Source: Candidatus Omnitrophota bacterium (GTDB lineage: Bacteria > Omnitrophota > Gorgyraeia > JABMQH01). From it: a DNA stretch of 58,309 nucleotides. The DNA is taken from NCBI GenBank assembly GCA_013203355.1, contig JABMQH010000075.1, positions 1-58,309 on the forward strand, given 5' to 3'. Position numbers and translations under genes: made by a program. Shown here in pieces: positions 13,435 through 38,708 of the stretch; the stretch's first letter is position 1, and each line of letters starts with the position of its first letter. The notes under the pieces were generated by a model that searched no databases, was not told where the DNA came from, and was given only the letters and a program-made list of their open reading frames with translations.

Positions 13435-13481
13435 TTTACCTTCCTTTATTCATATTATAATTATATCTTATCTTCTCCTAT

Positions 13482-13510
13482 TTGACAATAAAGGAATTAT
13501 CTGATATATT
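13482..13510 (+). promoter_or_regulatory. sigma70-type promoter; ATG only 8 nt after the -10 (leaderless transcript predicted)
   Basis: TTGACA (13482-13487), a 17-nt spacer, TATATT (13505-13510), then taaaacaa and ATG at 13519. No Shine-Dalgarno sequence is possible. Confidence 0.6.
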
Positions 13511-13518
13511 TAAAACAA

Positions 13519-17707: not shown

Positions 17708-17717
17708 CCAACCATTC

Positions 17718-19484
17718 CTATGTAGCCCAGTCCATCTTGCCTATTTCCCTGAGTATGATCTTCATCGTAACAAAACAGATTATTATCGCAATCAGCCCTC
17801 TTATGTACTGGCCCATCACCAACCAGCCTAAACCAAAGAGTGCTGAATAAATACTTATCGAAGTCAAAAGCCAGTTAAATATTTCCCGCCGGCCTATTTT
17901 CATAGCGTTCACATCCGGACATTTCTTGGCAATAGGCCCCCACCAGCCTCCGGGTTTTACCCTCCTGTAGAATTTCTCCAGATGCTCCTCCGGTTCAGGT
18001 GGTGTCAAAAACGCAACTAACAGTGCTATCGCTGTGCATGAAACAATCGTGATGACAAGCCTGATCGGGTAATAATCATCCGTACCCAATACGGGTACTC
18101 TTAAAAGTGCGAGCGCTATGGTAGCGGTAGAGATCAAAGAGGCGAATTCGCACCAAACGTTTATCCTCCACCAATACCAGCGCAGGAGCACAATAATAGC
18201 CGTTCCCACCATAAGCGACATTACAAAAAGCCAGGCAGAGTAAATGGATTTCATCATTAAACAGGCGGATCCGGCTAAAATAGTCATAAATATTATGGAA
18301 AGCCTCGACATCCAGACATAATGTTTCTCTGATGCGCCTTTTACAAGAAATCTTTTATATATGTCATTTACAAGATAGGATGCGCCCCAGTTTATATGCG
18401 TGACTACCGTTGACATAAACGCCGCCAGGAATGCCGCAACCATCATGCCGCGTAAGCCGTTTGGCAGAAATTTAACCATCATCCGCGGATATGCTGTTTC
18501 CGGATCGGCAATGTTCGGGAAGTATATAAGAGAGGCAAGGCCAACAACAATCCATGGCCATGGCCTTATAGCGTAATGCGCAAAATTATACCACAAAACG
18601 GCCAGGAGGGAATGCTTTTCATTCTTACAGGAAAACAGCCTCTGCGCCAAAAATCCGCCGCCTTCTCCCCCGCCCCACCATTGGACCAATATGAATACCA
18701 AAAATGTTATAACCGCAAGGTTTGAGGATTCCAGATTGGGGAATATATTAACAAGCTGGGACGACTCAACAACCCGTGACTGAACCCCTGCGGCGTTTGC
18801 CGCCTCGGCAGCTGCAATAGATTTTGTAATTAAGGCCGCTGGGCCGCCTGTCTTTACCATAACGATACCTGCTAATATTATAGATCCCGTCATTGCCAAT
18901 ATAAACTGGAAGAAATCGGTCGCTATAACACCCCAAAGTCCGGAGAAGAAAATATATATTATGGCAATAAACACCAGGGCCCATGTTGACATAACCTTTG
19001 GCCAGCCTAAAAGGACGTGCACGATTTTATACATGGCCAGGATTACCCAACCCAGCACAATGGAATTCCAGAATATCGAACGGTAAAAAGCGTGAAATCC
19101 CCTTAAAAATGCAGCGGGTTTGCCGTGATACCTGATTTCCATAAACTCAGCGTCAGTTATCAGGTTTGCCCGTCTCCATAGCCGTGCATAGAAAAATACG
19201 CAGAGCACACCACCCATAATTCCGCTCCACCAATACCAATTGCCCTGAAGCCCTCTGGTTCTTACGATCGCGGTAATAGCCAAAGGCGTATCTGCGGCAA
19301 AGCTGGTAGCGACTATAGAAGTGCCTGCAAGCCACCAATTAACTTCTCTTCCTGCAACAAAATATTCCAAGAGCCCCTTAGAGCCGCGTTTTGTAAAATA
19401 CAACCCTACCGCGATGGAAATCATCATGTAGATGATAATAATGCTCCAATCTACCTTGGAAAGTACCATTAATGTACCACCCAT
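17718..19484 (-). CDS. sodium:solute symporter family (SSS) transporter
   Basis: 588 aa with about 13 TM helices. The N-terminal block YFVAGREVNWWLAGTSIVATSFAADTPL is typical of SSS. AGGAGA lies 8 nt before the ATG. Confidence 0.8.
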   Translation of the reverse strand: MGGTLMVLSKVDWSIIIIYMMISIAVGLYFTKRGSKGLLEYFVAGREVNWWLAGTSIVATSFAADTPLAITAIVRTRGLQGNWYWWSGIMGGVLCVFFYARLWRRANLITDAEFMEIRYHGKPAAFLRGFHAFYRSIFWNSIVLGWVILAMYKIVHVLLGWPKVMSTWALVFIAIIYIFFSGLWGVIATDFFQFILAMTGSIILAGIVMVKTGGPAALITKSIAAAEAANAAGVQSRVVESSQLVNIFPNLESSNLAVITFLVFILVQWWGGGEGGGFLAQRLFSCKNEKHSLLAVLWYNFAHYAIRPWPWIVVGLASLIYFPNIADPETAYPRMMVKFLPNGLRGMMVAAFLAAFMSTVVTHINWGASYLVNDIYKRFLVKGASEKHYVWMSRLSIIFMTILAGSACLMMKSIYSAWLFVMSLMVGTAIIVLLRWYWWRINVWCEFASLISTATIALALLRVPVLGTDDYYPIRLVITIVSCTAIALLVAFLTPPEPEEHLEKFYRRVKPGGWWGPIAKKCPDVNAMKIGRREIFNWLLTSISIYSALFGLGWLVMGQYIRGLIAIIICFVTMKIILREIGKMDWAT

Positions 19485-19613: not shown

Positions 19614-22600
19614 TTATATATTTTCTGCAGTTTGTTCTGGTCCCTTCCCTAAGTCGTCTAGTCCTGCCGCACCAGCTGCAGGCTGCTTAGGCTTTCCATT
19701 TGGCACCCATTGATATTCTACCTTGCCCGCACCTTCGGGTGAGAGGCGAAGCCATCGACCTTTTGTAAACTCATCATTTGCCATCTCCCAACGGCCTTCA
19801 CTCAGGTGTGTTGTAAATCTTGCGATACCTCTTTCTAGCTGCTCTTGCGTATAGCCGGGGTTCTGATCAGGATCAGCTAACATTGCTTGACATATTTCAA
19901 GCGCTTCTTTTATCTTGGCCACCATAAGTTTATCTACCAGATGCCTTTGGTCTTCAGGCATCGCTGCCTTTGTCTTACTAATTAAATGTCTGAAAATTAC
20001 TCCAGGCATATCTAGAACTCCGCCTATTTCATCATTCTCTAAGCCGGGGCCGTTCTTAAAAGTAAACGCAAGAACGTTTTCGTCTTTTCTTATTCCATTT
20101 TTTACATACGCGCAGAAACCTACCCTGGCTCCAGCCGCTATATCCGTATCCGAAGCTATAAAGGCACTTTCTATTACAACCCTTTCTTTCGCTCCTGTTA
20201 TGCCTATAGTTGAACCACCTCCTATATTGGCAACATTGGCAACATATACAGTCTCCCCATCTATTTCCGCTTTAATCTCAGGGAAATCCGTATTACGAAT
20301 TGCTGTAGCCATATGGTGGTCTGCTAGACCTGTTGCGCCATTTGTTAACTCGGTCCCAACGGTTGAATCAATAAATGGGCTTCCTATAGTACCGGCACTT
20401 CTACCTCCTACAACTACAGCGCGTGGTTCAAACTTTGTTCCATCGGCTGCAGTGTTTCTTTCTATCAAATTATGAGAAGACGTTACATCATCTCCAAGCT
20501 GAGAATTACGTATACGTGAATTTGAGTGCTTATTGTTTTCGCCTATTGTTACATTTTCTCCTACACAATTCTCAATCTCTGAATTTGCTCCCACTGTAAC
20601 ATTGTCGAGATGGGAACCCCATACGGTTACTCCTGGTCCAATTACTGTGTTGCCTGTGAGCCTGGTCCCTGGAAGAAGTCTCGCAGTTGGATGCACCTCC
20701 ACCGCTGCATCGACATACGTTATTTGTGTTCTTGATCTCAGGGCTTGTGTTTTTACTATATCCGTCCGAATAGGTTCTCTTGCAACACCTTGACGCCTAA
20801 CATCCAATATCTGTGGCATCATTGTCTGTGCGTACTGGTGATGATTTGCGATAAGTCCATCCGCGATCAATTTGGTTAATAGCGGCTTACATCTGTCACT
20901 TGTATACATCGCAGTCGCAGCATCGTAATTCCACTCTGAAATAAACTTACCATTGCGAAATTCCCACGCTCTACTGTCCAAATGTGTTTTATATAAAGCT
21001 AATGCCTGCTGTAGTGTATCCCTTCTCGCTTCGAGTTTCGCCTTTGCTTCGGAACCGTCGCCCTCTGCAGCAATCAATGGCTCAAGCGCAGATAAGGCCT
21101 TTGTGCAAATAACCATACCTGTCCTAAGCATCTTCTCTGGAAAATCATCCAACACCTTAAGTACCTCATCTGGATCCGTATCATCCAGTTTTGCTTTCGC
21201 GTGAACTTTGGTGACCATATTTTCCATCATTCTTATAATCGCATGCGGACTATACGTAAAGGTCCATCCGGGAGTGGTATCTCTCGGACTAAGCCCATGT
21301 CTGGCCTCACCCGGTAGTATCTGGCCCCAGACCTCCCTTCCCTGATGTGCGGCTACACTAAATGGATTAATAACGGTTAGGTTCGGCTCCATGGCATGTT
21401 CCCAAGTTGTCAAATCCAGTTGTCTAGATAAAGCTATAATTCTTGTGTCCGGGGCAATTATACAGGATGGTTTAACAAAAACCGTACCGTGGTCGCTTAT
21501 GTCTCCTACTCCTGTAATGCGAGTGACGTAGTCACCCTGCGCAACCGCCTTCTCACCCTGATAATCTGAGAAGATAGCATACTCGCCCACAGGACTTACA
21601 TTAGGCAAACCCTCTATAAATTCTGGAACTACATTATCACCTTGTAAATCCAGTGCTAAAACCTTGTTTGTGAATACTCCTGTAACAAAAGCCATTCTCT
21701 TGATCTCTAATCCCCAGCCAAGCCAGGACTCAGCCACCTCTGTGGGGCCTATTATATTCACTAAATCCTCTGCATGAACCAATTCCACCTTGGCTCTTAC
21801 AATATTACATTGTCTGCCTATTTCGCTATGAGATACGTCGCTTTCTTCCACTACTGACCCCTTACCAACTCTGGTATTAATAAGATTGGACTGTCCTGTT
21901 ACTTTAGCTTCTGTTTCTATAACAGTCCTATCGTTAGCAACGCGGTACTCGCTATCCGCGTACCCCCATTTCTTTTTCTTTTCCACCGTCTTTAAAGTGG
22001 AATCCGAAATTATTGCCCTCTTCTCTACGTCAACATCATCCAACTTGCTGCGTTTGATTTGTGCACCCTGCTCAACTATGGAATTGGCGACAACGCTATT
22101 CTCGGAAATCCTTACATCTGAACCTATAACTGTCTTCATGCCTGTTACTATGCTTCCGCTTCCTATAAAAGCAGTCTCATCTATATTTCTAAGATCGACA
22201 TCCTTGGCTATCATTCCTCCTTGCTGTGTTTCATAGTAGTGGCCGTTATCGGTAAGGTTCAATTTAGCCATTCGTTCTGCTCTTTCCGCAGGAGGCATTG
22301 CTACTGCTGCTTCTACCACAGGAGTTCCTGCGGTAAGCCGCGCAAAGGAAAATTCAGAAGACGTTGATCTATTAAGTTCATTCGCAAAGATCGTCGCTAA
22401 TGTCATCTGGCTGAAATTTGTCAGTTCGTTGGGTGAATCGGGTATCGTCAGAATAAGTGCTCCTCGATTTTCAAGGAAGTCCACTGCCGGTTTTGCCTCT
22501 GCCCCATCCTGTACATCCGATTCCTTTACCACCACTATCAGGCTGGCGGCCCTCGTATCGTTTCTGTTTGCATCAACAACAGCTGCGGTCAGCGTCCTGG

Positions 22601-25600
22601 AATCGGTACCTAATACAACAACCAAGGCATCTTGGTATTTCGAAGCCGGGGCCTCTGTCGGATGAGGAGTAAACTCTGAATTCCTACCCGCTTTATTAAT
22701 CTGATCCAAAAATTTCTTTACCGTGTTCCACACCGCTGCCAGAGGTCCATGCACAGATTCATCTACAGGAAGGGCTTCTGCTTCAACACCGGCTATACGA
22801 TGCAACATAGACCCCCAGACCAACGCACTTGCATAATCCTGGCCGCCACCAATGATCTGAACCGTCCTATGCTGCATATCAAATTTATTCCTCCTCAAGT
22901 CAACGAGGCGCTGTCGCAAACGTCCAATCTGAGCTTCATTGGTAACAACTTGCCGTGACAACTCTCTAGCAGAGGTTAGGCCTACTTCGTAATCCTTCAT
23001 ATTTAGCGAGCCTTTTTGCCAACCCAGATAAACCCCAAAGCTCATCAACGACATATAGTACATTCCTGTAGTAGATGTTGCGTCCAAGTCATTGGGCAGG
23101 ACAATTGAGCCAAAACTGTTATTTCCATATGCCAGGACGCCTGGCGAGCGCCCATCAGTAATAGCAAATATGGGTGTCCCTTCAGGGACGTTTTCCTCTA
23201 ACACCTGCAGAATAAGCTCTTCGCCAATCGCATCCCCGGGCACTGCTTGTTGATCTGCATTACGGCCTTCAACCGGATCTTCGATATCAGGGATCTCTGC
23301 ATTTCTGCCCCAGGGTCTATTGTTCGACCGCCGCAGGACGACAACCACGGTATTTTCATCAATATCTGATGCAAGATCATAATCGCGTGGATTGTGGACT
23401 ATTACATTTACCCCTGCCAGTGTAGGTTTAACTGCTTCAAACACAAGTCCTTGTGTTTTATTCGCCGTAATCTTATACTCCCTGCCGTCGAAAAATGCTT
23501 TCAGCTGCTGTTGAAATTCCCTAGAAAACTGTCCTTCGTCAACCGTTGCAAATTCTATTAGCTGATCCTCACCCTTAACTTTTTTAACACCATCTTCCCC
23601 AATACCATTAATTTCTATTGGGCCACCTATTGGCTGGCCATGTTTAGTTTTTTGAATATAAAAATTGCGCGTACGAAAATTAAACGTAACGGTATAATAT
23701 TCTCCATTGACGGCAACATTTCCTACTGTCTGAGTCTCCATCGGTGTTCCGGTAGCCGGATCCTTAGGCCGATCAAAGAGACCTGCTCCTGTTATTCGAA
23801 AATCTGCGTGTCCCAAGGGGCCTGCAGCCATAATAGCTGCTGTATTACCATCGACCACTTCTTCAGTGATCACAACTACTTTTTTTATGTTCTCTGGACC
23901 AAATTGCTTAATGGCACTATCGTTGAATGTGCTGTAGCCAGCCATGCCGCCGACAGTGTTAGGAAGACACCTTCGTGTAACATTATCATATACTAATGGA
24001 AGTCTGGCTATGGCCTTATCGATTGATTTTGCCAATGTGGCCCAGTAAGCAGCAATCGCCTGCTGGTGCTGCACAACAAGCTCTTCAATAGCAACACCTT
24101 GAAGTTCGCTCATATATTGAAACATTTCATAGAGAACGCCGGGGACTTTAATACCTTTTACCGTGACAGATTTGGCGAGATTACGTGAACTATCAATTTC
24201 TGTATCCGATAAACCTGCTTGCCTAGCAAACGCTACCGCAGACTTAAAAAAGAACGTTGCATCGACAACAGCCTGGAGGGCGGGATGAACTCTATCAACC
24301 CCAAAAATCTGGACGCGGTCGCGACCATCGCCGCCTTCTGCTACAGGATCTATACCCGCTTCTTGCTTTAAAGTTTGTAGTTGTTCCCAAAATTCATTTT
24401 TCTCATCGCCTTCAAAATCATCCTCGTTAAAAGTTTGCACGATAAAATCAAGGCCAAGCTCTTTGCATCTTCTTATAAGCGCTAGTGCCTCATCAAACCG
24501 TGTAGGGTCGGTAACTTGAATAACGATCGGCCATCTCAGTTTATTTTTAGCAATAAACTCTAGAAGATTCCATGCAGTATCCTCGCCATAATCATAAGCC
24601 TTACCGAGAATCCAGCGTGTCTCCTCCCATTTTAATTCACCTTCCTCTATAATAGGATTATTGTGCTTACTGCCGAATACCAGAGCACCGCTCCCATTCC
24701 GATAGCGTTTGCCTTCGGCCATAATCCAACTATTCGGGTCCTCTGGATCTAATTGCGGATCTCTTACTTGTGCTGTTAGTATTTCCGGCATTTGCTGTTG
24801 TTGTTGCACAATTGTCATGCGCTCTGCCTGCACCTGCTGTCTTTGTTCTTCTTGGAGCGCGCCATCGCGCATTTGGCTAAGCTGAACACCGAGGATACCA
24901 AGATCAAATAGGATGCCCAAGAATCCTTTCGTGGTAAAGACGGCTCTCTCTTCTCCGGTCTTTACGTGAATTGTACCTGCCGAGTCAGCGGTGAGCGTTC
25001 CAATATCCGACTTAGGTTTTCCAGTAAGAGAAGCGGTGCATACCCCGTGACTGTCCTTAGCCTGCGTCAAGGCATCGAGCGTCAATGCCGTGGAACCGGA
25101 CCAGCTAATACCGACAACAAAATCGTGTTTTTCATCATAATGCTGGTTAGTAGAGACGAGATGACCCGGACCTACGGGAATAATTTCAACGCCGGGTAAA
25201 AGGGTTTTGAAAAGTCGCTGAACACATTTTGCATCTCTTTCAGAGCTTCCGATACCAGTAATAAACATTCGTTCAAGCCCCTCAAGATTCTCACCAAATC
25301 GTGCCTTTAACTCATCAATATCAATACCATATCGCTTGAAAACTCCCTTAACCTTTTCCATTGACATATCAACGGTCCCATCGGGCTGAATATAATTGGC
25401 CACACTCCTTAAAACAATCCATGGGATTTCATTGATGTGTTTCTCGGCATAGGTCCTAAATTTACCCTTATCAGCTATATCAATAGGGATTAAATCTTCC
25501 TCATCTTTTATTTCATCTGTTGTGGTTGGATCGATAGGGGTACCCAAGAACTTAGTATACTCAAGATTAACTTCCCAGTCATCAGTTGCTTCATTGAGCC

Positions 25601-28600
25601 TTTTTGATATTGAAACGACCTTTTGTTTGCCTTTAAGGGTTACCACGCGGGCGCTATATTTGTTTCTAATCACGTCCTTCTTGGTTTCCACTTCTTTGTC
25701 GATTTCTCGAACCCTTATGTTAAAAGCCTCGATTGCCTGGGCTACTTGCGGCTCATAGGAAGCTCCTAATTCCGCTTGCTTTCCAGCGAGCACTTCAAGT
25801 GCTGCATCCCTCGCTGCTCTAGCTTCGTCCACCGCCGCCATACCGTCTTCATCTATCTGATTAAGATCTCTTACATCGGCATCTATTTGTTGAGTGTCCC
25901 ATAACCGCAAGGCAGAACTGGGATCAGAGGTAACCTGGTATTTAGCGTCGACTACTTTCCCCTTTACAACTTCAGTTCTAATGACTACATAAAGAGGCCT
26001 TTCATGGCTTACGATAATGTGTTTATCAGGCATGTGGAGAGAGCGCACATCTGCAGCTATTTCAGATATTTCAGATTCCGGACCAAACACCGTAAGGGCC
26101 ACGCGCAAGGCTATTTCGTCAGGCGACATGAATCTAGTTTTTTTCGATGTCTTGACAATTTCGTTCCACAATGCTGCTAATGTCATCTCCTCCCCTGTCG
26201 CTATTTGTACGTTCCCTTCCAAGAAATTATGCGGGGAGTCTGTATCTGTATACTCTTGGGTTTCGTCACTCCTTCTGGATTCTTCACCACTTATAGCCAT
26301 AGAATCTAGGGCCGCTGCATCGCGAACATACTCCCAGAATACAATAAGCGCTTTGGTGTCGGTAAGAATCCTTTCTCCGTCTTCTGTCATAAAGTCATAA
26401 CCGCGCGCTTCAAGAAACTCTACCATGGCAGCAACGATATTCGGATTTAAGTCACCATTGTGGGCCATGATGCGTGTCGCTCTGCCTCTTTCCTCGGCCG
26501 GCAGAGCCTTGGCTCTTTTTAAACATTCCTGTAAACGTTCTCGCGAGCTCAAAGGTTGTCCACCATCTCCGTTGTGTGTAGGTAAATCTTTAACTATTGA
26601 AGCGATAGCGCTGGCCCTAAGCCCTGACACTCTACCAGTGTCCGTATGCGGTTGCCCATCTTTCTTCTCGTTACTTCCAGTGGTGGCCCATCGATCGTGT
26701 CCTCCTATGTAATCTATATTACTCATGTACCCCAAAGTAATGCTATCAAGGGTGCCGAGTTCGATCCCGTATTTCCTAATAACCGCAATTTTTGCATTAC
26801 CTGGATTTGCCGGAACAACAGATTCCCTCTGGAACCATATCGTCAGCGCCTCAGAAGCCCTGCCAACCATATTAAGCCGTGCCTCTTCGCGCCAGTCAGT
26901 AAACCAATCTTTTGTTCTCCAATCTTTTACGCCCTTGGTTCTCAACAGGGTTCGGTAGTTTTTCTCTACTTCTCCTCGATCTTCTGTCCGCACGGTAAAA
27001 GTGCCTATTAACGATGACTGCAACCTGAAGAGGTGCCGAACAGGATCCAGACTAAATATAGCAGGAACCCTGACAAAACGACCATTGAGAAACTGCTTTA
27101 TGGCATCCCAGCGGACTTGATCGCCTGCGGGAACCTCTTCTCCCCTGATTACCCTATCAATCACCCGCTCGTAGGTCATAACAAGCTCTGCTATCTTTGC
27201 TTCGATGTGTTCTGGATGTTGTCCCATCGCTTGCTCAGCAGCAGTAATTGCTTCTTCTAATTCAAATTTAATAAAATATTTAATATACTCGATATCCAGT
27301 TGATGTTTGTCTTTAAGTCTCCTTACCAAAGCGGGGATATTATTGCGGATTTTATATTCTCTACCACCAAAAAAATCAACTGCTAATCCGACGGGAGAAA
27401 ATCCCATTTGTCCAACCCCAATTGCTTTATTCTTTACGACATGGCCAGCGGCATCAAGCTCTCGAGTATACATCTCAGGTGCGCTGAAATCTGAATGTGC
27501 AGTAACGGCTATGTTTTGGTGGGTTCGCAATGTTTGACGTGCAGCAGTGACCCGCCTATTTATTTCCTGGCGCTCTTTCCGGTTCAGATTTCTCCATTTT
27601 TCATGAAGTGCTGCCAGGTCTTGATCTGTAAGCGGTTTGTGGTCATACAATTTAAGTAATGCTATTTCTAATTGAGGATCTTCACAGTCCGATACAACAG
27701 CTTCACGATTTTCATATAAATAATGCATAGCTCTTTCTTCAAGTCCCTGGCCTCTCATATATATAGCCCTGGCCATTTCTTCAGAGCCACCCATCACCTT
27801 ATTTACCCGGGTGCCAAACTCATCGTTGGTACTAATACCTACATCATCCGATCCCCTATACTCCATCTGCCTCATTGATCCCAGATGCTTACCAAATCCT
27901 GCTCCGATAGTTGTAATAATGCCGCAGGCACCTCTTATCCGTTTCAAATCGGCCCCTTCTAAAAGCCGAAATCCTGCATCACGAGCTTGCATAACCGGCT
28001 GAAGGAGCTTAAGTTCATCACCTAACTCACCATTAACCAGAATATTTCCTGTCCATCTTTGTATAAAATCCCCTATTGGTTCTGTTTGCTGAATCCCATT
28101 ATCTCTATAAGTTATTTCACTTTCACTTATGCTTTCAACTTCGACATAGTGATTTCCTTCTGGATCAGAAGCATTCCTTTTTACATGAGCTATAAATCTC
28201 TGCTGCCCGGTAGCTAGGTGTCTTAAAAGCTCAAAGCCGTTAGCAGTGGGTGCCATTCCGACACCTATTAACTCGCCTAATTCAGCTAATGCAAAGGCCG
28301 TATGATATAACCTGCCCTCTGCATCAATGTGGGCAACTTTGCCTTCCGACTCTGACATATCTATAGCTGTCAAAAACAATGCTGATATATCATTAGAGAC
28401 ATGCGAAGGCGAGGAGTATCGGCCTGTAAAAAGCGGGCTGGCATGTTGGGGATTATGAAGTGCATCGTGTAGGGCTTGTGGGCCGCAGGCCTCTGCAAGC
28501 CGCCTGTTAAGCCTATCCCATTCTTTTCTTGCAGTAGCCTGGAGTGCGGTATTTCCTGGATTGAGTGCTGCTACAATTTCTAAAAGCCAGTTATCAGGGC

Positions 28601-30863
28601 TACCGCGAAGACCGTGCATGCTCTTGACAAATAGCTCTGCCAATTTATCCACCCTCTCCTGTCGCGTTGCCCTTCGGCCCTTAGCGGTTCTTGACCATGC
28701 CTCAAACTCCCTCTTAAAAAGTGCGCTATCCGCTTCAGCTACAAGCGTTTTGGGTGCTTGTGCTTCCCCTCTTGTTACCTGAATCCCTGAGGCCTCTACA
28801 ACCCGGGCATATTGCGCTTCTGTTAGAATCTGAAGACCTACATTCTCCTGCTCTCCTACGACATCAGGATCAACTTCAATATCCGCAGGGGCTTCTTCTA
28901 AATTAAAATAACGGATAATTCTTTTTTCTCCAGCGATAGTGATAGGTATGTAATAGCGTCCGGTTCTATCTACCAAAAGATTGTCTATATCAAATGTTAG
29001 CGAACCAAGGGCTGCTCTAAGATTTTCTGCTTGGTCGTGCCGCAGGCTACCTACATACCCTGAAAACCATGTATCCCTTGCTTCATTTAATCTTTGCGTT
29101 AGGTCCGCGCTACTAATATTTGGATCTTCTTGCTTTAATTTATACACAAAGCCGCTTAAGAATAATAAAGCTACTTGCGTATTAAAATCTACTATCGCCT
29201 CGCTAGCAACAGGTGAATCTTTGGCCAGAAGTGAAGTTATGGCCAATTCATTTCTGTCGGTAGAAAACTTTTTTACATAAGGAATTTTTGTTCCTGAAAG
29301 AATTTTTAAATACGGGTTTTCTGTACTATGGCTTGTTATGCGCGGCGAAATCACTACATAAGATATGCCTCGCCCCCTTAGCCGCTCCGTTATCCCCTTT
29401 GTATGATAGCCACCAGTGATCAAGGCCATTACATCGACATTGCTTTCGTCCATCTTTTTAATTGTATTCTCGATTATGGCATCATCTCGCGTATCTGCTA
29501 TACGATAAAAGTCTTCTAAATCAGGCAGGTGTTTATCTATAAGAGAAAAATTTGGATCAGGGCGATATGGGATCCTATATTTTTTAGCCTTAGAATTTAT
29601 AAAGTCTATAAAGACAGCCGAGCGGAAGTTGGTTTTATTATTCGTGTAATACTCTACGTCTTTTTTCGACATAGAGATATCAAGCATATTTTCTAAAAGC
29701 TGTATGTGCTTCAAGAGCTTAGCAAGTGTGCGCTGATCCTCATTAGCAAAAAGCCCTTCCTTGATCAGATCTTCCAAAGCAACCATTTCCTCTAAAAGAC
29801 CTAAATTATCTATCCTTTCATAGATCATTAAATACGTGATATAGTGACTTAGGTTTGGATATTTATGAAGATCGATCTTTTTTACATAGGAGAGGTTTCT
29901 CAAATAGGCGTAATATACGGCTGCGCCAATTCGATTGGATTGAAAACTCGTGCTTTGCGTCAATAACTCTTCAAGCTCTTTTTTTGAAAGAATCTTTTCT
30001 AAAATAGAAATAACATCGGAGCGTTCACGGTCTACTTGATTGAAATTGATCTTCTTTTCTATATCGATAGTCTTATAAAGGAGTTTAAGGTTGGCAAATT
30101 CTTCTACGGGTACCTTCTTGGATTTTGCAAGCTTCCGCAGATAATTACAATAATCAATTAGGTTGATCTTCTCATTTTGGTACGCAGCGGCCTTTGCGTC
30201 TAAGCGCTTAAGCGTCTTTGAATAAATACGTTCCTTAAATTTACCTAACACCCTCTTTACGTTATCACATGCGGATATCATCGCCTCTCTGTCCGCTAAA
30301 GTATTGGTGAATGATGCAAGATTTGCTAAATAGTACTCTTTTGTCTCCACGCCATAAAGTTGTGGCGGGTTTTTAGAGGTTATCGCGAGAAACTCCGCAC
30401 CGTTTATCTTTCCCTTTTTCATAAAATAGGTTGCAACTTCTCTTCTGATGTCTTTATCCGGGAAAGCGGTAAATAAAGAAGGGTCTATTTCGCCTGTCGA
30501 TCCCTCAAGGCCGATAAATCTTAAACCATTTTCGTTTACAAGGGTATCTAAAATCTGAGAAATATTCGATTGTGCCTCAAAATTGCAGTGGGCATCTTGG
30601 ATGTTTATTACAAGCCTGCTCTTATTTCCCTTAAAAATCTCATGCACCCTACCTGCGCTCTCAGCAATTATGATCTTTTCGGGGTCAGTTATCTTAATTT
30701 GACGGGAAATTGAAAGGTCCCCTTCAACTTTCAGTTCCGGGGATTGAGATTGTGATGTTTCCATCATACCAGCAAGGCTTGCCTGGGTGGGATTTGTTAA
30801 CAGAAAGGAAAAAACAACAAGGAGAGAAATAATCCTGCACAAATATGTCTTCCTAAAACTCAT
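19614..30863 (-). CDS. 3749-aa signal-anchored multidomain protein. Domain order: unknown N-domain, degenerate C39-like domain, expanded GlmS-type amidotransferase (GATase plus SIS pair), second SIS-like pair, two DUF4954/left-handed beta-helix modules
   Basis: AAGGAGG 8 nt before the ATG. N-terminus is MSFRKTYLCRIISLLVVFSFLLTNPTQA. GlmS landmarks: Cys980 (GA-CGII), EYRG, GGHDRWATTG (W1392), HNGDLNPN (H1468), TDTKAL, GISWSGSTALTL, GELKWEE, and NLAKSVTV (ending at aa 2235), which matches the GlmS C-terminus. VHGPLAAV lies at H2705. Hexapeptide-repeat regions start at about aa 2869 and about aa 3380. Confidence 0.75.
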   Translation of the reverse strand: MSFRKTYLCRIISLLVVFSFLLTNPTQASLAGMMETSQSQSPELKVEGDLSISRQIKITDPEKIIIAESAGRVHEIFKGNKSRLVINIQDAHCNFEAQSNISQILDTLVNENGLRFIGLEGSTGEIDPSLFTAFPDKDIRREVATYFMKKGKINGAEFLAITSKNPPQLYGVETKEYYLANLASFTNTLADREAMISACDNVKRVLGKFKERIYSKTLKRLDAKAAAYQNEKINLIDYCNYLRKLAKSKKVPVEEFANLKLLYKTIDIEKKINFNQVDRERSDVISILEKILSKKELEELLTQSTSFQSNRIGAAVYYAYLRNLSYVKKIDLHKYPNLSHYITYLMIYERIDNLGLLEEMVALEDLIKEGLFANEDQRTLAKLLKHIQLLENMLDISMSKKDVEYYTNNKTNFRSAVFIDFINSKAKKYRIPYRPDPNFSLIDKHLPDLEDFYRIADTRDDAIIENTIKKMDESNVDVMALITGGYHTKGITERLRGRGISYVVISPRITSHSTENPYLKILSGTKIPYVKKFSTDRNELAITSLLAKDSPVASEAIVDFNTQVALLFLSGFVYKLKQEDPNISSADLTQRLNEARDTWFSGYVGSLRHDQAENLRAALGSLTFDIDNLLVDRTGRYYIPITIAGEKRIIRYFNLEEAPADIEVDPDVVGEQENVGLQILTEAQYARVVEASGIQVTRGEAQAPKTLVAEADSALFKREFEAWSRTAKGRRATRQERVDKLAELFVKSMHGLRGSPDNWLLEIVAALNPGNTALQATARKEWDRLNRRLAEACGPQALHDALHNPQHASPLFTGRYSSPSHVSNDISALFLTAIDMSESEGKVAHIDAEGRLYHTAFALAELGELIGVGMAPTANGFELLRHLATGQQRFIAHVKRNASDPEGNHYVEVESISESEITYRDNGIQQTEPIGDFIQRWTGNILVNGELGDELKLLQPVMQARDAGFRLLEGADLKRIRGACGIITTIGAGFGKHLGSMRQMEYRGSDDVGISTNDEFGTRVNKVMGGSEEMARAIYMRGQGLEERAMHYLYENREAVVSDCEDPQLEIALLKLYDHKPLTDQDLAALHEKWRNLNRKERQEINRRVTAARQTLRTHQNIAVTAHSDFSAPEMYTRELDAAGHVVKNKAIGVGQMGFSPVGLAVDFFGGREYKIRNNIPALVRRLKDKHQLDIEYIKYFIKFELEEAITAAEQAMGQHPEHIEAKIAELVMTYERVIDRVIRGEEVPAGDQVRWDAIKQFLNGRFVRVPAIFSLDPVRHLFRLQSSLIGTFTVRTEDRGEVEKNYRTLLRTKGVKDWRTKDWFTDWREEARLNMVGRASEALTIWFQRESVVPANPGNAKIAVIRKYGIELGTLDSITLGYMSNIDYIGGHDRWATTGSNEKKDGQPHTDTGRVSGLRASAIASIVKDLPTHNGDGGQPLSSRERLQECLKRAKALPAEERGRATRIMAHNGDLNPNIVAAMVEFLEARGYDFMTEDGERILTDTKALIVFWEYVRDAAALDSMAISGEESRRSDETQEYTDTDSPHNFLEGNVQIATGEEMTLAALWNEIVKTSKKTRFMSPDEIALRVALTVFGPESEISEIAADVRSLHMPDKHIIVSHERPLYVVIRTEVVKGKVVDAKYQVTSDPSSALRLWDTQQIDADVRDLNQIDEDGMAAVDEARAARDAALEVLAGKQAELGASYEPQVAQAIEAFNIRVREIDKEVETKKDVIRNKYSARVVTLKGKQKVVSISKRLNEATDDWEVNLEYTKFLGTPIDPTTTDEIKDEEDLIPIDIADKGKFRTYAEKHINEIPWIVLRSVANYIQPDGTVDMSMEKVKGVFKRYGIDIDELKARFGENLEGLERMFITGIGSSERDAKCVQRLFKTLLPGVEIIPVGPGHLVSTNQHYDEKHDFVVGISWSGSTALTLDALTQAKDSHGVCTASLTGKPKSDIGTLTADSAGTIHVKTGEERAVFTTKGFLGILFDLGILGVQLSQMRDGALQEEQRQQVQAERMTIVQQQQQMPEILTAQVRDPQLDPEDPNSWIMAEGKRYRNGSGALVFGSKHNNPIIEEGELKWEETRWILGKAYDYGEDTAWNLLEFIAKNKLRWPIVIQVTDPTRFDEALALIRRCKELGLDFIVQTFNEDDFEGDEKNEFWEQLQTLKQEAGIDPVAEGGDGRDRVQIFGVDRVHPALQAVVDATFFFKSAVAFARQAGLSDTEIDSSRNLAKSVTVKGIKVPGVLYEMFQYMSELQGVAIEELVVQHQQAIAAYWATLAKSIDKAIARLPLVYDNVTRRCLPNTVGGMAGYSTFNDSAIKQFGPENIKKVVVITEEVVDGNTAAIMAAGPLGHADFRITGAGLFDRPKDPATGTPMETQTVGNVAVNGEYYTVTFNFRTRNFYIQKTKHGQPIGGPIEINGIGEDGVKKVKGEDQLIEFATVDEGQFSREFQQQLKAFFDGREYKITANKTQGLVFEAVKPTLAGVNVIVHNPRDYDLASDIDENTVVVVLRRSNNRPWGRNAEIPDIEDPVEGRNADQQAVPGDAIGEELILQVLEENVPEGTPIFAITDGRSPGVLAYGNNSFGSIVLPNDLDATSTTGMYYMSLMSFGVYLGWQKGSLNMKDYEVGLTSARELSRQVVTNEAQIGRLRQRLVDLRRNKFDMQHRTVQIIGGGQDYASALVWGSMLHRIAGVEAEALPVDESVHGPLAAVWNTVKKFLDQINKAGRNSEFTPHPTEAPASKYQDALVVVLGTDSRTLTAAVVDANRNDTRAASLIVVVKESDVQDGAEAKPAVDFLENRGALILTIPDSPNELTNFSQMTLATIFANELNRSTSSEFSFARLTAGTPVVEAAVAMPPAERAERMAKLNLTDNGHYYETQQGGMIAKDVDLRNIDETAFIGSGSIVTGMKTVIGSDVRISENSVVANSIVEQGAQIKRSKLDDVDVEKRAIISDSTLKTVEKKKKWGYADSEYRVANDRTVIETEAKVTGQSNLINTRVGKGSVVEESDVSHSEIGRQCNIVRAKVELVHAEDLVNIIGPTEVAESWLGWGLEIKRMAFVTGVFTNKVLALDLQGDNVVPEFIEGLPNVSPVGEYAIFSDYQGEKAVAQGDYVTRITGVGDISDHGTVFVKPSCIIAPDTRIIALSRQLDLTTWEHAMEPNLTVINPFSVAAHQGREVWGQILPGEARHGLSPRDTTPGWTFTYSPHAIIRMMENMVTKVHAKAKLDDTDPDEVLKVLDDFPEKMLRTGMVICTKALSALEPLIAAEGDGSEAKAKLEARRDTLQQALALYKTHLDSRAWEFRNGKFISEWNYDAATAMYTSDRCKPLLTKLIADGLIANHHQYAQTMMPQILDVRRQGVAREPIRTDIVKTQALRSRTQITYVDAAVEVHPTARLLPGTRLTGNTVIGPGVTVWGSHLDNVTVGANSEIENCVGENVTIGENNKHSNSRIRNSQLGDDVTSSHNLIERNTAADGTKFEPRAVVVGGRSAGTIGSPFIDSTVGTELTNGATGLADHHMATAIRNTDFPEIKAEIDGETVYVANVANIGGGSTIGITGAKERVVIESAFIASDTDIAAGARVGFCAYVKNGIRKDENVLAFTFKNGPGLENDEIGGVLDMPGVIFRHLISKTKAAMPEDQRHLVDKLMVAKIKEALEICQAMLADPDQNPGYTQEQLERGIARFTTHLSEGRWEMANDEFTKGRWLRLSPEGAGKVEYQWVPNGKPKQPAAGAAGLDDLGKGPEQTAENI

Positions 30864-31148: not shown

Positions 31149-31814
31149 ATGAGAAAGATAATCGTGATCTCGGATTTTGACGGAACAATCACAGCAAAGG
31201 ATTCGCTTGTTGAGATATTAAACAAATTCGCAAGCCCGGAGTGGCATAAGATCGCAAGGCTTATAAATAAAGGCCGCCTTGGTACCCGAATCGGCCTGCG
31301 AAAAGAATTCAATTTATGCAAAGTCACCAGAAAGGAATTCGTAAATTTTCTTATCAAAAACATAAAGATCGATACAACCTTTAAAAACTTTTTACAATTC
31401 TGCAGAAAAAATAAATTCAGATTCCTGGTTGTAAGCGGCGGCTTCGGGCTTAATATTAAAACCATCTTTAAAAAATTCGGGATCAAGAACATACCTTTTT
31501 ACGCCAATGCAATAAAGTTCAATGAGGACGTAGCCGAGTTAAAATTCCCTCCCGAAGCTAAGACCTGCAAAACATGCAGCCATTGCAAGGCGCCTTATAT
31601 AGGACAATTTAAAAAGAAGGGTTATTTCACTATTTATATCGGGGATAGTGTAACGGACCGCTGCCCTGCAAGGGTCGCTGACTTAGTATTCGCCAAGCAT
31701 CAGCTGGCTGAATATTGCAAGGCCAAAGGCATTAAGTATATTCCTTATAATACCTTTGGCCAGATAAAGAAATATCTTACTTCTTGCTCTTTACAGCCTC
31801 GGAAGCGACACTAA
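31149..31814 (+). CDS. HAD-IB phosphatase of the MtnX (2-hydroxy-3-keto-5-methylthiopentenyl-1-phosphate phosphatase) family
   Basis: IVISDFDGTITAKDSLVEILNKFASPEWHKI closely resembles the B. subtilis MtnX N-terminus. The Cys cluster CKTCSHCKAPY and IGDSVTDRCPA..DLVFAK also match. No other methionine-salvage genes are nearby. The 3' end overlaps the convergent DUF4954 gene by 38 nt. Confidence 0.65.
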   Translation: MRKIIVISDFDGTITAKDSLVEILNKFASPEWHKIARLINKGRLGTRIGLRKEFNLCKVTRKEFVNFLIKNIKIDTTFKNFLQFCRKNKFRFLVVSGGFGLNIKTIFKKFGIKNIPFYANAIKFNEDVAELKFPPEAKTCKTCSHCKAPYIGQFKKKGYFTIYIGDSVTDRCPARVADLVFAKHQLAEYCKAKGIKYIPYNTFGQIKKYLTSCSLQPRKRH

Positions 31815-33690: not shown

Positions 33691-33707
33691 ATTTCTCCCT
33701 TCGTCTT

Positions 33708-33762
33708 AAATAGGGACGATCCCTTCTGCCTCTATCTTTAGGTTAGGGAGCCGTCCCTATTT
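33708..33762 (-). other. long intergenic stem-loop between nagB and the DUF4954 gene
   Basis: AAATAGGGACG (33708-33718) pairs with CGTCCCTATTT (33752-33762): an 11 bp perfect stem, with further TCCCT/AGGGA pairing inside the 33-nt loop. It ends 6 nt upstream of the DUF4954 RBS. Confidence 0.4.
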
Positions 33763-33803
33763 ATACATTCAGCAATGACGATGAACAATAAACTCTATGC
33801 TAA

Positions 33804-37792: not shown

Positions 37793-37830
37793 TTTGGTCT
37801 CGCTCCATTAAAGACCCCAATTACATCTAA

Positions 37831-37858
37831 ATCCCGTTAGATAAGTTTCTAACGGGAT
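37831..37858 (-). other. perfect 11-bp stem-loop between the 262-aa and 311-aa genes
   Basis: ATCCCGTTAGA-taagtt-TCTAACGGGAT. Only TT follows on the minus strand, so it is a weak terminator at best. It may be an intra-operon processing or stability element. Confidence 0.4.
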
Positions 37859-38692: not shown

Positions 38693-38708
38693 GGAACCAA
38701 CCTCCGTT

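What the first reader, a model, noticed from the sequence alone, without database searches (positions are those of the whole stretch)
24159..27926. GlmS spread over about 1256 residues by large insertions, with its nucleophile cysteine buried at position 980
All GlmS landmarks occur in the canonical order from Cys980 to ..NLAKSVTV(2235). This span is about twice the length of a normal ~610-aa GlmS.

The distance between the EYRG arginine (R1003) and the HDRWAT arginine (R1391) is 388 aa. I remember about 47 aa for E. coli GlmS, which implies an insert of roughly 340 aa in the glutaminase domain (nt ~26709-27830). This insert is helical and charged, e.g. DIEYIKYFIKFELEEAITAAEQ.

A second coiled-coil-like linker of about 200 aa (aa ~1655-1860) separates the glutaminase and isomerase halves.

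Class-II amidotransferases use the free alpha-amine of Cys1, so an internal Cys980 requires proteolytic maturation or implies a non-catalytic role.
Basis: partly seen in the sequence, partly recalled or inferred. Interest (0 to 1): 0.75.

Follow-up and report, generated by a model that had tools for sequence, protein, structure and literature searches.

The report
Protease-gated GlmS-like enzyme in giant protein
Inside a 3,749-residue secreted-looking protein of an uncultured Omnitrophota bacterium sits a stretched-out copy of the sugar-amine enzyme GlmS, and its essential first cysteine is buried right after a built-in protease and that protease's own cut-site motif, so the enzyme is probably switched on by being cut.

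Summary
Window 24159-27926 (- strand) is aa 980-2235 of one uninterrupted 3,749-aa ORF (19614-30863). All GlmS landmarks are collinear from Cys980 to NLAKSVTV. There is also a ~54-aa insert and a 77-aa two-helix hairpin.

The inserts are real. About 20 giant homologues from independent assemblies share them, as do ~45 clusters of 1,450-1,880-aa relatives that start with Met-Cys. The AlphaFold model is confident (pLDDT 91, pTM 0.90), and its only structural matches are GFAT/GlmS/PurF glutaminase domains.

New here: in every homologue with an internal Cys (21/21), a C39-type papain-like peptidase domain lies directly upstream (aa 753-944; invariant Cys793, near-invariant His905). It is followed by a double-glycine-type leader motif (L-12, E/D-8, L-7, I/V-4, G-2, small-1) that ends exactly at the nucleophile (…LLEGADLKRIRGA|C980).

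All glutaminase catalytic residues are invariant. The best reading is a zymogen: C39 cleavage exposes Cys1. No cleavage has been shown.

It is not a canonical GlmS: 102 bits against a cut-off of 418, and the His504 loop is lost, although an extra downstream SIS domain keeps an invariant HGP.

Novelty: new variant of known kinds. Interest is about 0.72.

The parts
19614..30863 (-). Whole ORF, 3,749 aa: the giant multi-domain protein that contains the finding
   Evidence: It has a single N-terminal hydrophobic segment and no other membrane-helix-like segment apart from a buried SIS helix.
30780..30863 (-). aa 1-28: signal-peptide-like N-terminus (MSFRKTYLCR-IISLLVVFSFLL-TNPTQA|SL). The assignment is inferred from sequence features only.
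   Evidence: Giant homologues carry similar N-termini ending '..LTQAxPAWA|LRP'.
28608..30779 (-). aa 29-752: N-terminal region of unknown fold, shared only with the closest relatives
   Evidence: No Pfam or PDB sequence hit. It is homologous to the N-termini of P0003, P0037 and P0002, and partly P0001. Other family members have only ~100 aa here.
28032..28607 (-). aa 753-944: C39-type (papain-like, double-glycine) peptidase domain. Candidate triad: Cys793 (nt 28485-28487), His905 (nt 28149-28151), Asp921.
   Evidence: Alignment A1: C793 invariant, H905 near-invariant, and a 'DN-G...eF..rWtG..L' tail. Profile against PDB: the top 6 hits are all the PCAT1 C39 domain, E 0.018-0.23. Foldseek on the AF2 model (pLDDT 78.8): PCAT1, LahT150 and ComA peptidase domains, best E 2.9e-4, prob 1.0. 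P0001 gets a Pfam PF03412 hit at E 2.6e-4. The family HMM finds the domain in 21/21 homologues with an internal Cys.
27927..28031 (-). aa 945-979: leader-like tether ending in the double-glycine-type motif F-15 L-12 D-8 L-7 I-4 G-2 A-1 (..FRLLEGADLKRIRGA|C). The predicted scissile bond is Ala979-Cys980.
   Evidence: Position counts in 20 homologues: -1 C/A/S/G 20/20; -2 G 18/20; -4 I/V 16/20; -7 L 14/20; -8 E/D 13/20; -12 L/I/V 18/20. These match the published consensus (PMC6363468). The segment is modelled at pLDDT ~88-92, with a helix at -10..-5.
27756..27926 (-). aa 980-1036: first piece of the Ntn glutaminase core (Cys1, Gly2, Arg26=R1003, Asp29=D1006)
26718..27755 (-). aa 1037-1382: insert 1, ~346 aa, all-helical. 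It is conserved (DPVRHxFRL and WFQ motifs) in the giants and in the ~1,500-aa Met-Cys relatives.
   Evidence: It has no structural match in the PDB.
26637..26717 (-). aa 1383-1409: core piece with GHDRWATTG..QPH (Arg73=R1391, Trp74=W1392)
26475..26636 (-). aa 1410-1463: insert 2 (~54 aa), present only in a subset of the giants
25896..26474 (-). aa 1464-1656: core piece with AHNGD (Asn98=N1469, Gly99=G1470), LTDTK (Asp123=D1502) and the TSD motif. It includes a smaller insertion at ~1527-1575.
   Evidence: helices 678-715 and 717-754 of the model, pLDDT >95; conserved in the family
25476..25664 (-). aa 1734-1796: last beta-strands of the glutaminase domain
24156..25475 (-). aa 1797-2236: GlmS-type isomerase module (two SIS domains) ending in RNLAKSVTVK. 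The Ser303, Ser347, Ser349, Thr352, Lys485, Glu488 and Lys603 equivalents are kept. Gln348 is replaced by Trp, and the His504 loop is lost.
22254..24155 (-). aa 2237-2870: family-conserved region after the GlmS C-terminal motif. It contains an extra SIS-like domain (aa 2605-2788, nt 22500-23051) with an invariant HGP (His2705), the motif that holds His504 in GlmS.
19614..22178 (-). aa ~2896-3749: two left-handed beta-helix (hexapeptide) regions (~2896-3060 and ~3364-3460), each followed by helical segments. They resemble the GlmU/sugar-nucleotidyl-transferase LbH weakly.

Best explanation
The region is the catalytic core of a divergent GlmS-like glutamine amidotransferase/sugar-phosphate isomerase embedded in a 3,749-aa, signal-peptide-bearing multi-domain protein of an Omnitrophota bacterium. 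It is made as an inactive precursor, because the Ntn nucleophile Cys980 is blocked by 979 upstream residues.

A C39-type cysteine peptidase domain in the same chain (aa 753-944) recognises the double-glycine-type leader motif that follows it (aa ~965-979). It cuts after Gly978-Ala979, in cis or between copies. That cut creates the free alpha-amine of Cys1 that class-II amidotransferases need. It also detaches the enzyme (aa 980-3749) from the N-terminal signal/anchor-plus-protease fragment.

The matured module would hydrolyse glutamine and pass ammonia to a ketose phosphate bound in the SIS pair. The ring-opening histidine lost from that pair may be supplied by the extra downstream SIS domain, acting as a fused 'second subunit'.

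What is shown:
- domain identities
- collinearity with GlmS
- conservation of the inserts, motif and catalytic residues
- co-occurrence of an internal Cys with the C39 module and the motif

What is inferred:
- that cleavage happens
- that C39 performs it
- the substrate (fructose-6-P or similar)
- the role of the extra SIS domain
- where the enzyme works
For: 1. GlmS-like identity and real inserts:
- Collinear profile matches.
- Profile-profile probability 99.4 %, E 3e-20, with no ordinary GlmS in the query.
- AF2 pLDDT 91.1, pTM 0.90 for aa 980-1797.
- Foldseek top 36 hits are all GFAT/GlmS/PurF.
- The same inserts occur in ~20 giant homologues at 26-48 % identity and in ~45 clusters of 1,450-1,880-aa relatives.

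2. The glutaminase is under selection for catalysis. Cys1, Gly2, Arg26, Asp29, Arg73, Trp74, Asn98, Gly99 and Asp123 equivalents are invariant in 18/18 giants.

3. A C39 peptidase lies directly upstream:
- Invariant Cys793 and near-invariant His905.
- Top PDB profile hits are all PCAT1 C39.
- Foldseek finds PCAT1, LahT150 and ComA.
- In the model Cys793 starts a helix, while His905 and Asp921 lie on consecutive strands, as in LahT150 (PMC6363468).

4. The 13 residues before Cys980 fit the double-glycine leader rule (L-12, E-8, L-7, V/I-4, G-2, G/A/S-1) in 20 homologues. Published C39 domains tolerate any P1' residue.

5. Perfect co-occurrence. 21/21 homologues with an internal Cys have the C39 module. 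Relatives without it start Met-Cys.

6. It is not an assembly artefact. The same architecture and the same gene neighbourhood appear in independent assemblies.

7. Background from established knowledge: class-II amidotransferases need the free N-terminal Cys, and short propeptides are removed from B. subtilis PurF and from glutamate synthase.
Against: - No cleavage data of any kind exist (no proteomics, no biochemistry).
- The sequence-level C39 evidence is weak for the window protein itself. It has no Pfam PF03412 hit, and the PDB profile E-values are 0.018-0.23.
- The part of the model around Cys793 has pLDDT <50.
- The oxyanion Gln of classical C39 domains is not conserved.
- The cut-site motif alone is not statistically distinctive. 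A PSSM scan gives comparable scores in shuffled sequence. Its weight comes only from its position and conservation.
- The P1 residue is Cys in 7/20 homologues, which is not a described double-glycine variant.
- A signal peptide implies export, where glutamine, sugar phosphates and acetyl-CoA are not expected. The site of action is therefore unexplained.
- The isomerase half lacks His504 and has Gln348 replaced by Trp, so the acceptor substrate may not be fructose-6-P.
Confidence: 0.58

Rival explanations
1. Maturation occurs at the same bond, but by Ntn-type self-processing. Cys980 attacks its own preceding peptide bond (N-to-S acyl shift), as in other Ntn hydrolase precursors. The C39 domain would serve another purpose, such as cutting other proteins or acting as a non-catalytic chaperone-like C39-like domain.
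For: Autocatalytic propeptide removal is the rule in the Ntn superfamily (established knowledge). A small residue at -1 and Gly at -2 also suit a tight turn before the nucleophile. The sequence evidence that the C39 domain is active is only moderate.
Against: This does not explain the conservation of the hydrophobic and acidic positions at -4, -7, -8 and -12, which are the C39 recognition positions. It also does not explain the strict 21/21 coupling of an internal Cys with a C39 domain carrying an invariant Cys and a near-invariant His.
Confidence: 0.17
2. There is no cleavage. The glutaminase-like domain is a structural or regulatory pseudo-enzyme, or uses free ammonia, and Cys980 stays internal.
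For: The domain is so divergent that Pfam and NCBIfam glutaminase models miss it. It carries about 500 aa of insertions. The isomerase half has lost His504.
Against: Nine glutaminase catalytic and binding residues are invariant across giants that share only 26-48 % identity. Relatives with the same inserts place the Cys right after Met, the active configuration. A protease and cut motif sit at the exact bond.
Confidence: 0.15
3. Artefact: an assembly chimera, or a frameshift-fused run of separate genes (protease gene plus Met-Cys GlmS-like gene).
For: None found. It was considered only because the protein is very long and absent from the 90 %-cluster protein index.
Against: The reading frame runs uninterrupted through the junction, with no start codon before Cys980. 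Base composition is uniform. The same fused architecture is found in about 20 proteins from JGI, ENA, NCBI and Logan assemblies, and the same neighbouring genes in four of those assemblies that were looked up.
Confidence: 0.02

Closest known systems
GlmS / GFAT (glutamine--fructose-6-phosphate aminotransferase, class-II Ntn amidotransferase plus two SIS domains)
   Same: Same domain order and fold. The Cys1, Arg26, Asp29, Arg73, Trp74, Asn98, Gly99 and Asp123 equivalents are kept, as are Ser303, Ser347, Ser349, Thr352, Lys485, Glu488 and Lys603 and the RNLAKSVTV tail.
   Different: It has about 500 aa of conserved insertions in the glutaminase domain. The nucleophile is internal at residue 980. 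The chain continues 1,500 aa past the GlmS C-terminus. The His504 loop is lost and Gln348 is replaced by Trp. It scores 102 bits against the NCBIfam cut-offs of 381 and 418. Canonical glmS is reported in 174 of 176 complete Omnitrophota genomes (preprint 10.64898/2026.06.07.730766), so this is probably an extra paralogue.
Peptidase C39 domains of bacteriocin/peptide exporters (PCAT1, ComA, LahT150) and their double-glycine leader substrates
   Same: Papain-like fold with Cys at a helix start and His/Asp on consecutive strands. The substrate motif is L-12 x3 E-8 L-7 x2 V/I-4 x G-2 G/A/S-1, with cleavage after the second small residue.
   Different: It is not fused to an ABC transporter. Protease, leader and 'cargo' are one polypeptide in the order protease-leader-cargo. 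The cargo is a 2,770-aa enzyme whose new N-terminus is a catalytic residue. The oxyanion Gln is not conserved, P1 is often Cys, and it falls below the Pfam threshold.
Propeptide-bearing class-II amidotransferases (B. subtilis PurF, glutamate synthase large subunit) and Ntn-hydrolase precursors in general (from established knowledge, not tested here)
   Same: The nucleophile is unmasked by removing residues in front of it, so the precursor is inactive.
   Different: Known amidotransferase propeptides are about 11-40 residues and have no dedicated protease domain. Here the 'propeptide' is 979 residues and carries its own C39 protease and recognition motif.
Omnitrophota giant proteins with N-terminal signal peptide plus C39 domain (West-Roberts et al. 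2023 preprint, 10.1101/2023.11.21.568195; Nielsen & Lui 2026 preprint, 10.64898/2026.06.07.730766)
   Same: Same phylum. The proteins have an N-terminal signal peptide and a nearby C39 domain, and their polypeptides contain multi-enzyme sugar-metabolism modules. Self-cleavage has been speculated.
   Different: [quoted passage not shown] Here a specific scissile bond with a functional reason is predicted. This protein is also much shorter (3.7 kAA) than the >=10-30 kAA proteins they catalogued.
Long GlmS-like proteins of 1,450-1,880 aa starting Met-Cys-Gly-Ile-Val (one is named by IMG 'glucosamine 6-phosphate synthetase-like amidotransferase/phosphosugar isomerase protein')
   Same: They have the same ~300-aa insert at the same position, the same hairpin and the same isomerase module. 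A Pfam GATase_6 hit falls after the insert.
   Different: They have no signal peptide, no C39 domain and no leader, and the Cys is exposed simply by Met removal. Their C-terminal extensions differ.

Membership tests
GlmS (NCBIfam TIGR01135 / NF001484 equivalog) | Whole-protein score at or above the curated cut-off | tested here: not met
   101.7 and 102.1 bits against cut-offs of 418 and 381, and only the isomerase half matches.
GlmS | Nucleophile Cys is residue 1 after Met removal | tested here: not met
   The Cys is residue 980 of the ORF, with no start codon in front of it. The feature would be met only after the predicted cleavage.
GlmS | Ntn glutaminase fold with Arg26, Arg73, Trp74, Asn98, Gly99 and Asp123 | tested here: met
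   Foldseek top hits are GFAT1, GlmS and PurF. The residues are invariant in 18/18 giants.
GlmS | Two SIS domains with Ser347, Ser349, Thr352, Lys485, Glu488 and Lys603 in a C-terminal RNLAKSVTV tail | tested here: met
   However, the tail is not the C-terminus of the chain.
GlmS | Ring-opening His504 in the ELKHGP loop of the second SIS domain | tested here: not met
   The loop is replaced (GETAWNL) in the window protein and is not conserved in the family. An invariant HGP exists instead in an extra SIS domain at aa ~2705.
GlmS | Catalyses Fru-6-P + Gln -> GlcN-6-P + Glu | not testable with these tools
   Needs an enzyme assay.
Peptidase C39 (Pfam PF03412) | Score above the Pfam gathering threshold | tested here: not met
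   No hit for window aa 1-979 at E<=1. Homologue P0001 scores 21.3 bits against a cut-off of 22.
Peptidase C39 | Papain-like fold resembling the PCAT1, ComA and LahT peptidase domains | tested here: met
   Foldseek: 6v9z E 2.9e-4, then 6mpz, 3k8u and 5xe9, prob 0.99-1.0, TM (target-normalised) 0.46-0.56 for the isolated domains. The model pLDDT is 78.8.
Peptidase C39 | Catalytic Cys, His and Asp, plus an oxyanion Gln | tested here: inconclusive
   Cys793 is invariant and His905 near-invariant. By my reading, the third position is Asp in most of the 20 and another residue (Ser, Asn or Glu) in the rest. The Gln is not conserved, and the model is of low confidence around Cys793.
Peptidase C39 | Substrate with a double-glycine leader (L-12, E-8, L-7, V/I-4, G-2, G/A/S-1) | tested here: met
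   The motif is present directly downstream in 20/20 aligned homologues. The consensus is taken from PMC6363468.
Peptidase C39 | Proteolytic activity at that site | not testable with these tools
   Needs biochemistry or proteomics.

The most novel reading that the evidence does not exclude
The signal peptide - C39 - double-glycine unit at the N-terminus of Omnitrophota giant proteins may be a general self-release and activation device. In this family it has been recruited to manufacture the catalytic N-terminus of an Ntn amidotransferase.

If so, this would be the first amidotransferase zymogen gated by its own dedicated protease. It would keep a glutamine-burning amino-sugar enzyme silent until it has been exported, to the periplasm, the cell surface or a prey cell. 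The enzyme forms part of a two-protein set that also holds LbH, PGM-like and UAP-like modules. The fused extra SIS domain would replace the second subunit of the GlmS dimer by donating the catalytic histidine.
Probability: 0.3. Interest if true: 0.85.

Novelty: new variant of a known kind. Interest (0 to 1): 0.72.

Why it matters
1. It predicts, to the residue, a cleavage site for the C39 domains that sit at the N-termini of Omnitrophota giant proteins. The published preprints raise self-cleavage only as speculation and say cleavage points are unknown. The prediction can be tested with a ~1,000-aa recombinant fragment.

2. It would be a new way of controlling a class-II amidotransferase. A protease domain and its recognition motif in the same chain would create the catalytic N-terminus. 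This extends the use of C39 and double-glycine processing from small peptides to the activation of a large enzyme.

3. It defines a previously undescribed, structurally well-predicted family of insertion-bearing GlmS-like enzymes, both giant and ~1,500-aa forms. Standard annotation misses the glutaminase half of these proteins.

4. The family may be a natural example of a homodimeric active site (His504 supplied in trans) rebuilt within a single chain.

5. The apparent export signal on an enzyme that needs cytoplasmic metabolites bears on how these ultra-small, host-dependent bacteria use their giant proteins.

Tried and rejected
- **Word-indexed homologue search.** The search on the whole ORF timed out. 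The search on aa 940-2260 and the one on alignment A1 found nothing, although relatives exist. Only the exhaustive HMMER search found them.
- **Pfam on a spliced glutaminase domain** (insert 1 removed): no GATase hit. The glutaminase identity therefore rests on home-made profiles, hhalign and fold comparison.
- **phmmer of the region against PDB:** only SIS/isomerase hits.
- **Collection scans.** The genome-contig scan found only an ordinary Saccharibacteria GlmS.
- **'Polyprotein' idea.** I tested whether further double-glycine sites occur in this and the other giant ORFs. A leave-one-out PSSM ranks the Cys980 site second of all positions, but shuffled sequences score as high. No other site can be claimed, and the motif alone is not significant.
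- **Internal duplication.** BLAST found no internal duplication of the GlmS module and no relation to the neighbouring DUF4954 protein.
- **Regions with no informative sequence match.** The N-terminal 750 aa and aa 2237-2900 gave nothing against PDB sequences.
- **Model geometry.** I could not measure the distance from the scissile bond to Cys793 in the model, because coordinates are not returned.
- **Profile A2 against PDB** hits GlmS strongly. A2 contains three ordinary GlmS sequences, so I do not count it as independent evidence; one search is the clean test.

Full report
**What is at the coordinates**

The finding's interval, 24159-27926 on the minus strand, lies inside a single open reading frame, 19614..30863, of 3,749 codons. 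With aa p starting at nt 30863-3(p-1), Cys980 is nt 27924-27926 and Val2235 ends at 24159. The DNA reads straight through the junction (…GAT TTG AAA CGG ATA AGA GGT GCC TGC GGC ATT…), with no stop, frameshift or start codon. Base composition is even across the window.

**Is it GlmS-like, and are the inserts real?**

Curated models see only half of it.
- NCBIfam GlmS models match aa 1794-2094 at 102 bits, far below their cut-offs of 381 and 418.
- Pfam reports only a borderline SIS domain.
- phmmer against PDB sequences finds only SIS/isomerase domains.
- Splicing out the big insert does not rescue a Pfam glutaminase hit.

A profile built from 38 ordinary ~610-aa GlmS proteins nevertheless gives four collinear matches:

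| GlmS profile positions | Window aa | Content |
|---|---|---|
| 2-58 | 980-1034 | CGI…EYRG.D..G |
| 65-94 | 1383-1411 | GHDRWATTG…QPH |
| 245-609 | 1797-2236 | ends RNLAKSVTVK; E 4e-32 |
| 411-557 | 2605-2788 | weaker match to an additional SIS-like domain |

BLASTP against the E. coli sequence, recalled from memory, adds AHNGD…TDT aligned to residues 95-225.

An exhaustive HMMER search of 1.84 billion cluster representatives found 171 relatives.
- About 20 are giant proteins of 2,241-4,868 aa that match the query nearly end to end (P0001 48 %, P0003 43 %, others 26-35 %).
- A second tier consists of 1,450-1,880-aa proteins.
- Ordinary GlmS matches only weakly, on the isomerase half.

Mapping the GlmS profile on all of them shows the large insertion always between profile positions ~60 and ~66. 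It is ~350 aa in the giants, ~300 aa in the 1,500-aa class, ~185 aa in two intermediates and absent in two others.

A giant-only profile, containing no ordinary GlmS, aligns to the ordinary-GlmS profile with probability 99.4 %, E 3e-20.

AlphaFold2 on aa 980-1797, using a 23-sequence alignment, gives pLDDT 91.1 and pTM 0.90. The inserts are therefore ordered parts of one compact body:
- a helical bundle for insert 1
- a long antiparallel two-helix hairpin at aa 1657-1733

Foldseek against the PDB returns only class-II amidotransferases in its top 36 hits. These are human GFAT-1, E. coli GlmS (the isolated glutaminase domain 1xff at target-normalised TM 0.54-0.56) and PurF. Nothing matches the inserts.

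The one correction is that the 'second 200-aa linker' is a 77-aa hairpin inside the glutaminase domain. It is followed by that domain's last strands, and the isomerase begins at ~1797.

**Catalytic residues**

Across 18 giants the equivalents of Cys1, Gly2, Arg26, Asp29, Arg73, Trp74, Asn98, Gly99 and Asp123 are invariant.

In the isomerase module Ser303, Ser347, Ser349, Thr352, Lys485, Glu488 and Lys603 (in RNLAKSVTV) are kept. Gln348 is Trp in most of the giants, and the ELKHGP loop that carries His504 is gone.

The extra SIS-like domain further down (aa 2605-2788) carries D-E/S-x-x-H-G-P, with H and G invariant in every family member. In E. coli GlmS, His504 acts on the active site of the neighbouring subunit (established knowledge). 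A fused domain that supplies it in trans is therefore a reasonable but untested reading.

**What lies in front of Cys980**

I aligned the 230 residues upstream of the Cys in 20 homologues. The alignment shows:
- an invariant Cys (window Cys793, in a CGxxA motif)
- a near-invariant His (His905, in N-H-Y/F-V-E-V)
- a mostly conserved Asp/Asn two strands later (Y-R-D921-N-G)
- a tail e-F-x-x-r-W-t-G-x-x-L

Several lines identify this as a C39 peptidase domain.
- The alignment profile's top six PDB hits are all the C39 peptidase domain of the bacteriocin exporter PCAT1. The E-values are weak (0.018-0.23), but the His, DPG and F..W.G motifs align.
- Homologue P0001 has a Pfam Peptidase_C39 hit just below threshold.
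- An AlphaFold model of aa 750-990 (pLDDT 78.8, pTM 0.77) places Cys793 at the start of a helix and His905 and Asp921 on consecutive strands. The confidence around Cys793 itself is low.
- Foldseek on that model returns PCAT1 (E 2.9e-4), the LahT150 double-glycine protease bound to its leader, the ComA peptidase domain and other papain-like proteases.

The 13 residues between this domain's tether and the nucleophile follow the double-glycine leader rule:

| Position before the Cys | Residues | Count (of 20) |
|---|---|---|
| -1 | C/A/S/G | 20 |
| -2 | G | 18 |
| -4 | I/V | 16 |
| -7 | L | 14 |
| -8 | E/D | 13 |
| -12 | L/I/V | 18 |

The window sequence is F-R-L-L-E-G-A-D-L-K-R-I-R-G-A | C980.

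The published description of C39 substrates matches (PMC6363468). Leaders end in Gly-Gly, Gly-Ala or Gly-Ser. The consensus is Leu(-12)-X3-Glu(-8)-Leu(-7). [quoted passage not shown] Residues after the cut are tolerated broadly.

A family HMM of the peptidase core finds it in all 21 homologues whose Cys is internal. It ends 25-40 residues before the Cys, and it is absent from the window's other giant ORFs. Family members without the module begin Met-Cys-Gly.

**Interpretation**

The precursor cannot be an active glutaminase, because class-II amidotransferases use the free amine of Cys1 (established knowledge). Its glutaminase residues are nonetheless under strict conservation.

The simplest account is that the built-in C39 domain cuts after Gly978-Ala979. 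This unmasks Cys1 and releases aa 980-3749 from the N-terminal signal/anchor-plus-protease fragment. I put this at about 0.58.

The rivals are:
- Ntn-type self-cleavage at the same bond, with the C39 domain doing something else: about 0.17. This does not explain the conserved -4, -7, -8 and -12 positions.
- No cleavage, with a non-catalytic glutaminase domain: about 0.15. This is contradicted by the invariant catalytic residues.
- An assembly artefact: effectively excluded by about 20 independent homologues and by conserved synteny.

Weaknesses:
- There are no experimental data.
- The sequence-level C39 evidence for the window protein is sub-threshold.
- The oxyanion Gln is missing, and P1 is Cys in 7/20 homologues.
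- A PSSM of the motif is not significant on its own in a scan.

**Context**

The organism is an Omnitrophota bacterium. The canonical GlmM at 7135-8490 is 71-76 % identical to proteins named 'Candidatus Omnitrophica bacterium'.

The neighbourhood is NagB (33804-34574), DUF4954 hexapeptide protein (31777-33690), HAD phosphatase, the giant gene, an SSF transporter and a second HAD. It is the same in L004 and L005. The ABC-transporter/ROK/GH94 block recurs next to P0016 in L002.

The protein has one N-terminal hydrophobic segment, with basic residues before it and a T-Q-A site after it. No other membrane segment was found. Homologues share signal-peptide-like N-termini ending AWA|LRP.

After the GlmS-like part come a family-conserved ~630-aa region and two hexapeptide-repeat regions with weak GlmU-like similarity.

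A second giant ORF (42967-48153) combines a phosphoglucomutase domain with a region weakly resembling eukaryote-type UDP-GlcNAc pyrophosphorylase. The two proteins could together cover a UDP-GlcNAc-like pathway. This is inference only.

An export signal on enzymes that need cytoplasmic metabolites is unexplained.

**Comparison with what is known**

Two preprints on Omnitrophota giant proteins are relevant.
- One notes C39 domains near N-terminal signal peptides, speculates about self-cleavage and states that cleavage points are unknown (10.1101/2023.11.21.568195).
- The other describes multi-enzyme sugar-metabolism giants and a 24-protein C39 architecture cluster (10.64898/2026.06.07.730766).

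In the term searches I ran inside these two papers, a GlmS-like module in the giant proteins does not come up. GlmS appears only as the canonical gene, present in 174/176 complete genomes. A full-text search for C39, double-glycine and amidotransferase together found nothing relevant.

The module is therefore not a member of canonical GlmS, since it fails the score cut-off, the N-terminal Cys and His504. It is not a Pfam-threshold C39 domain either. It works like both: a GlmS-type amidotransferase whose activation step appears to be a C39 double-glycine cut.

I classify it as a new variant of known kinds, with interest of about 0.72.

Noticed in passing
window 42967-48153 (-): A second giant ORF (1,728 aa) has a signal-peptide-like N-terminus. 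It has a clear phosphoglucomutase/phosphomannomutase domain I (aa 1018-1118, E 5.5e-15). An upstream region (aa ~150-620, containing 'LMAGGAGTRL') has as its best PDB sequence hits eukaryote-type UDP-GlcNAc diphosphorylases, but these are weak (E 0.085-0.24). Together with the GlmS-like/LbH giant it could cover a UDP-GlcNAc-type pathway.
   Followed up: partly
window 48155-51478 (-) and 52153-58200 (-): Two further large ORFs (1,107 and 2,015 aa) are paralogues, 40 % identical over ~1,050 aa, with no Pfam hit. Each carries an internal twin-arginine-like motif followed by a hydrophobic stretch: SRRGFLRTMGILTSAGVVAPG at aa ~58 and SRRDFIREAVAAAAGVAIAPS at aa ~172. These look like Tat signals that are not at the N-terminus.
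   Followed up: no
window 22500-23051 (-), aa 2605-2788 of the giant ORF: An extra SIS-like domain lies downstream of the GlmS C-terminal motif. It keeps an invariant H-G-P (His2705) in all family members, whereas the GlmS-like module itself has lost the His504 loop. This may be a fused stand-in for the second subunit of the GlmS dimer.
   Followed up: partly
proteins P0026-P0071; not in the window: A sizeable family, about 45 clusters at 50 % identity, of 1,450-1,880-aa proteins starts MCGIV.YFGGAGN.LTRVL. They carry the same ~300-aa insert in the glutaminase domain and a 450-800-aa C-terminal extension of unknown nature. One is named by IMG only as a 'glucosamine 6-phosphate synthetase-like' protein.
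   Followed up: partly
window 31777-34574 (-), 31149-31814 (+), 16925-19484 (-); loci L004, L005: The gene order NagB - DUF4954 (hexapeptide-repeat protein) - HAD phosphatase (opposite strand) - giant gene - SSF transporter - HAD hydrolase is conserved in two independent assemblies. A GlcN-6-P deaminase next to a GlcN-6-P-synthase-like enzyme would form a futile cycle if both were active in the same compartment.
   Followed up: partly
window 8487-16922; locus L002: A GH94 phosphorylase, a ROK-family protein, a 347-aa protein with no Pfam hit and a fused sugar-binding-protein/permease ABC system lie near the giant gene. The same set recurs next to homologue P0016, which suggests an amino-sugar or disaccharide uptake and phosphorolysis block linked to the giant protein.
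   Followed up: partly
window 36857-42900 (-): This is a run of secreted-looking proteins. Three (38709-39317, 37907-38728, 39321-40529) repeat a ~150-aa module with the motif 'GGWCGYYTLL…FWVKGE.GGENF.IGLAD', and the same kind of module opens the 792-aa protein that also has CBM30/CBM9 and a weak GH18-like region. Two others (311 and 699 aa, the latter with PDZ and TPR) share a C-terminal domain with no Pfam hit.
   Followed up: no
N-termini of window ORFs 42967-48153, 48155-51478 and 304-1692, and of giant homologues P0007-P0017: The signal-peptide-like N-termini are unusually alike and end in a shared motif: '…LTQAxPAWALRP' in the homologues, and 'ITWPAPESCLRQL', 'IAWSAPQSSLRPL' and 'IVWAHPYSLYSLR' in the window. 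The conserved L-R-P after the likely signal-peptidase site might be a sorting signal.
   Followed up: no
aa ~786-795 of the giant ORF and the equivalent positions in homologues (alignment A1): In about half of the homologues the candidate C39 nucleophile is part of a C-x-x-C-G motif (for example DCPTCGA, LCPNCAE). The window protein has a single Cys there (AEACGPQ). The classical oxyanion Gln six residues upstream is absent throughout the family.
   Followed up: no
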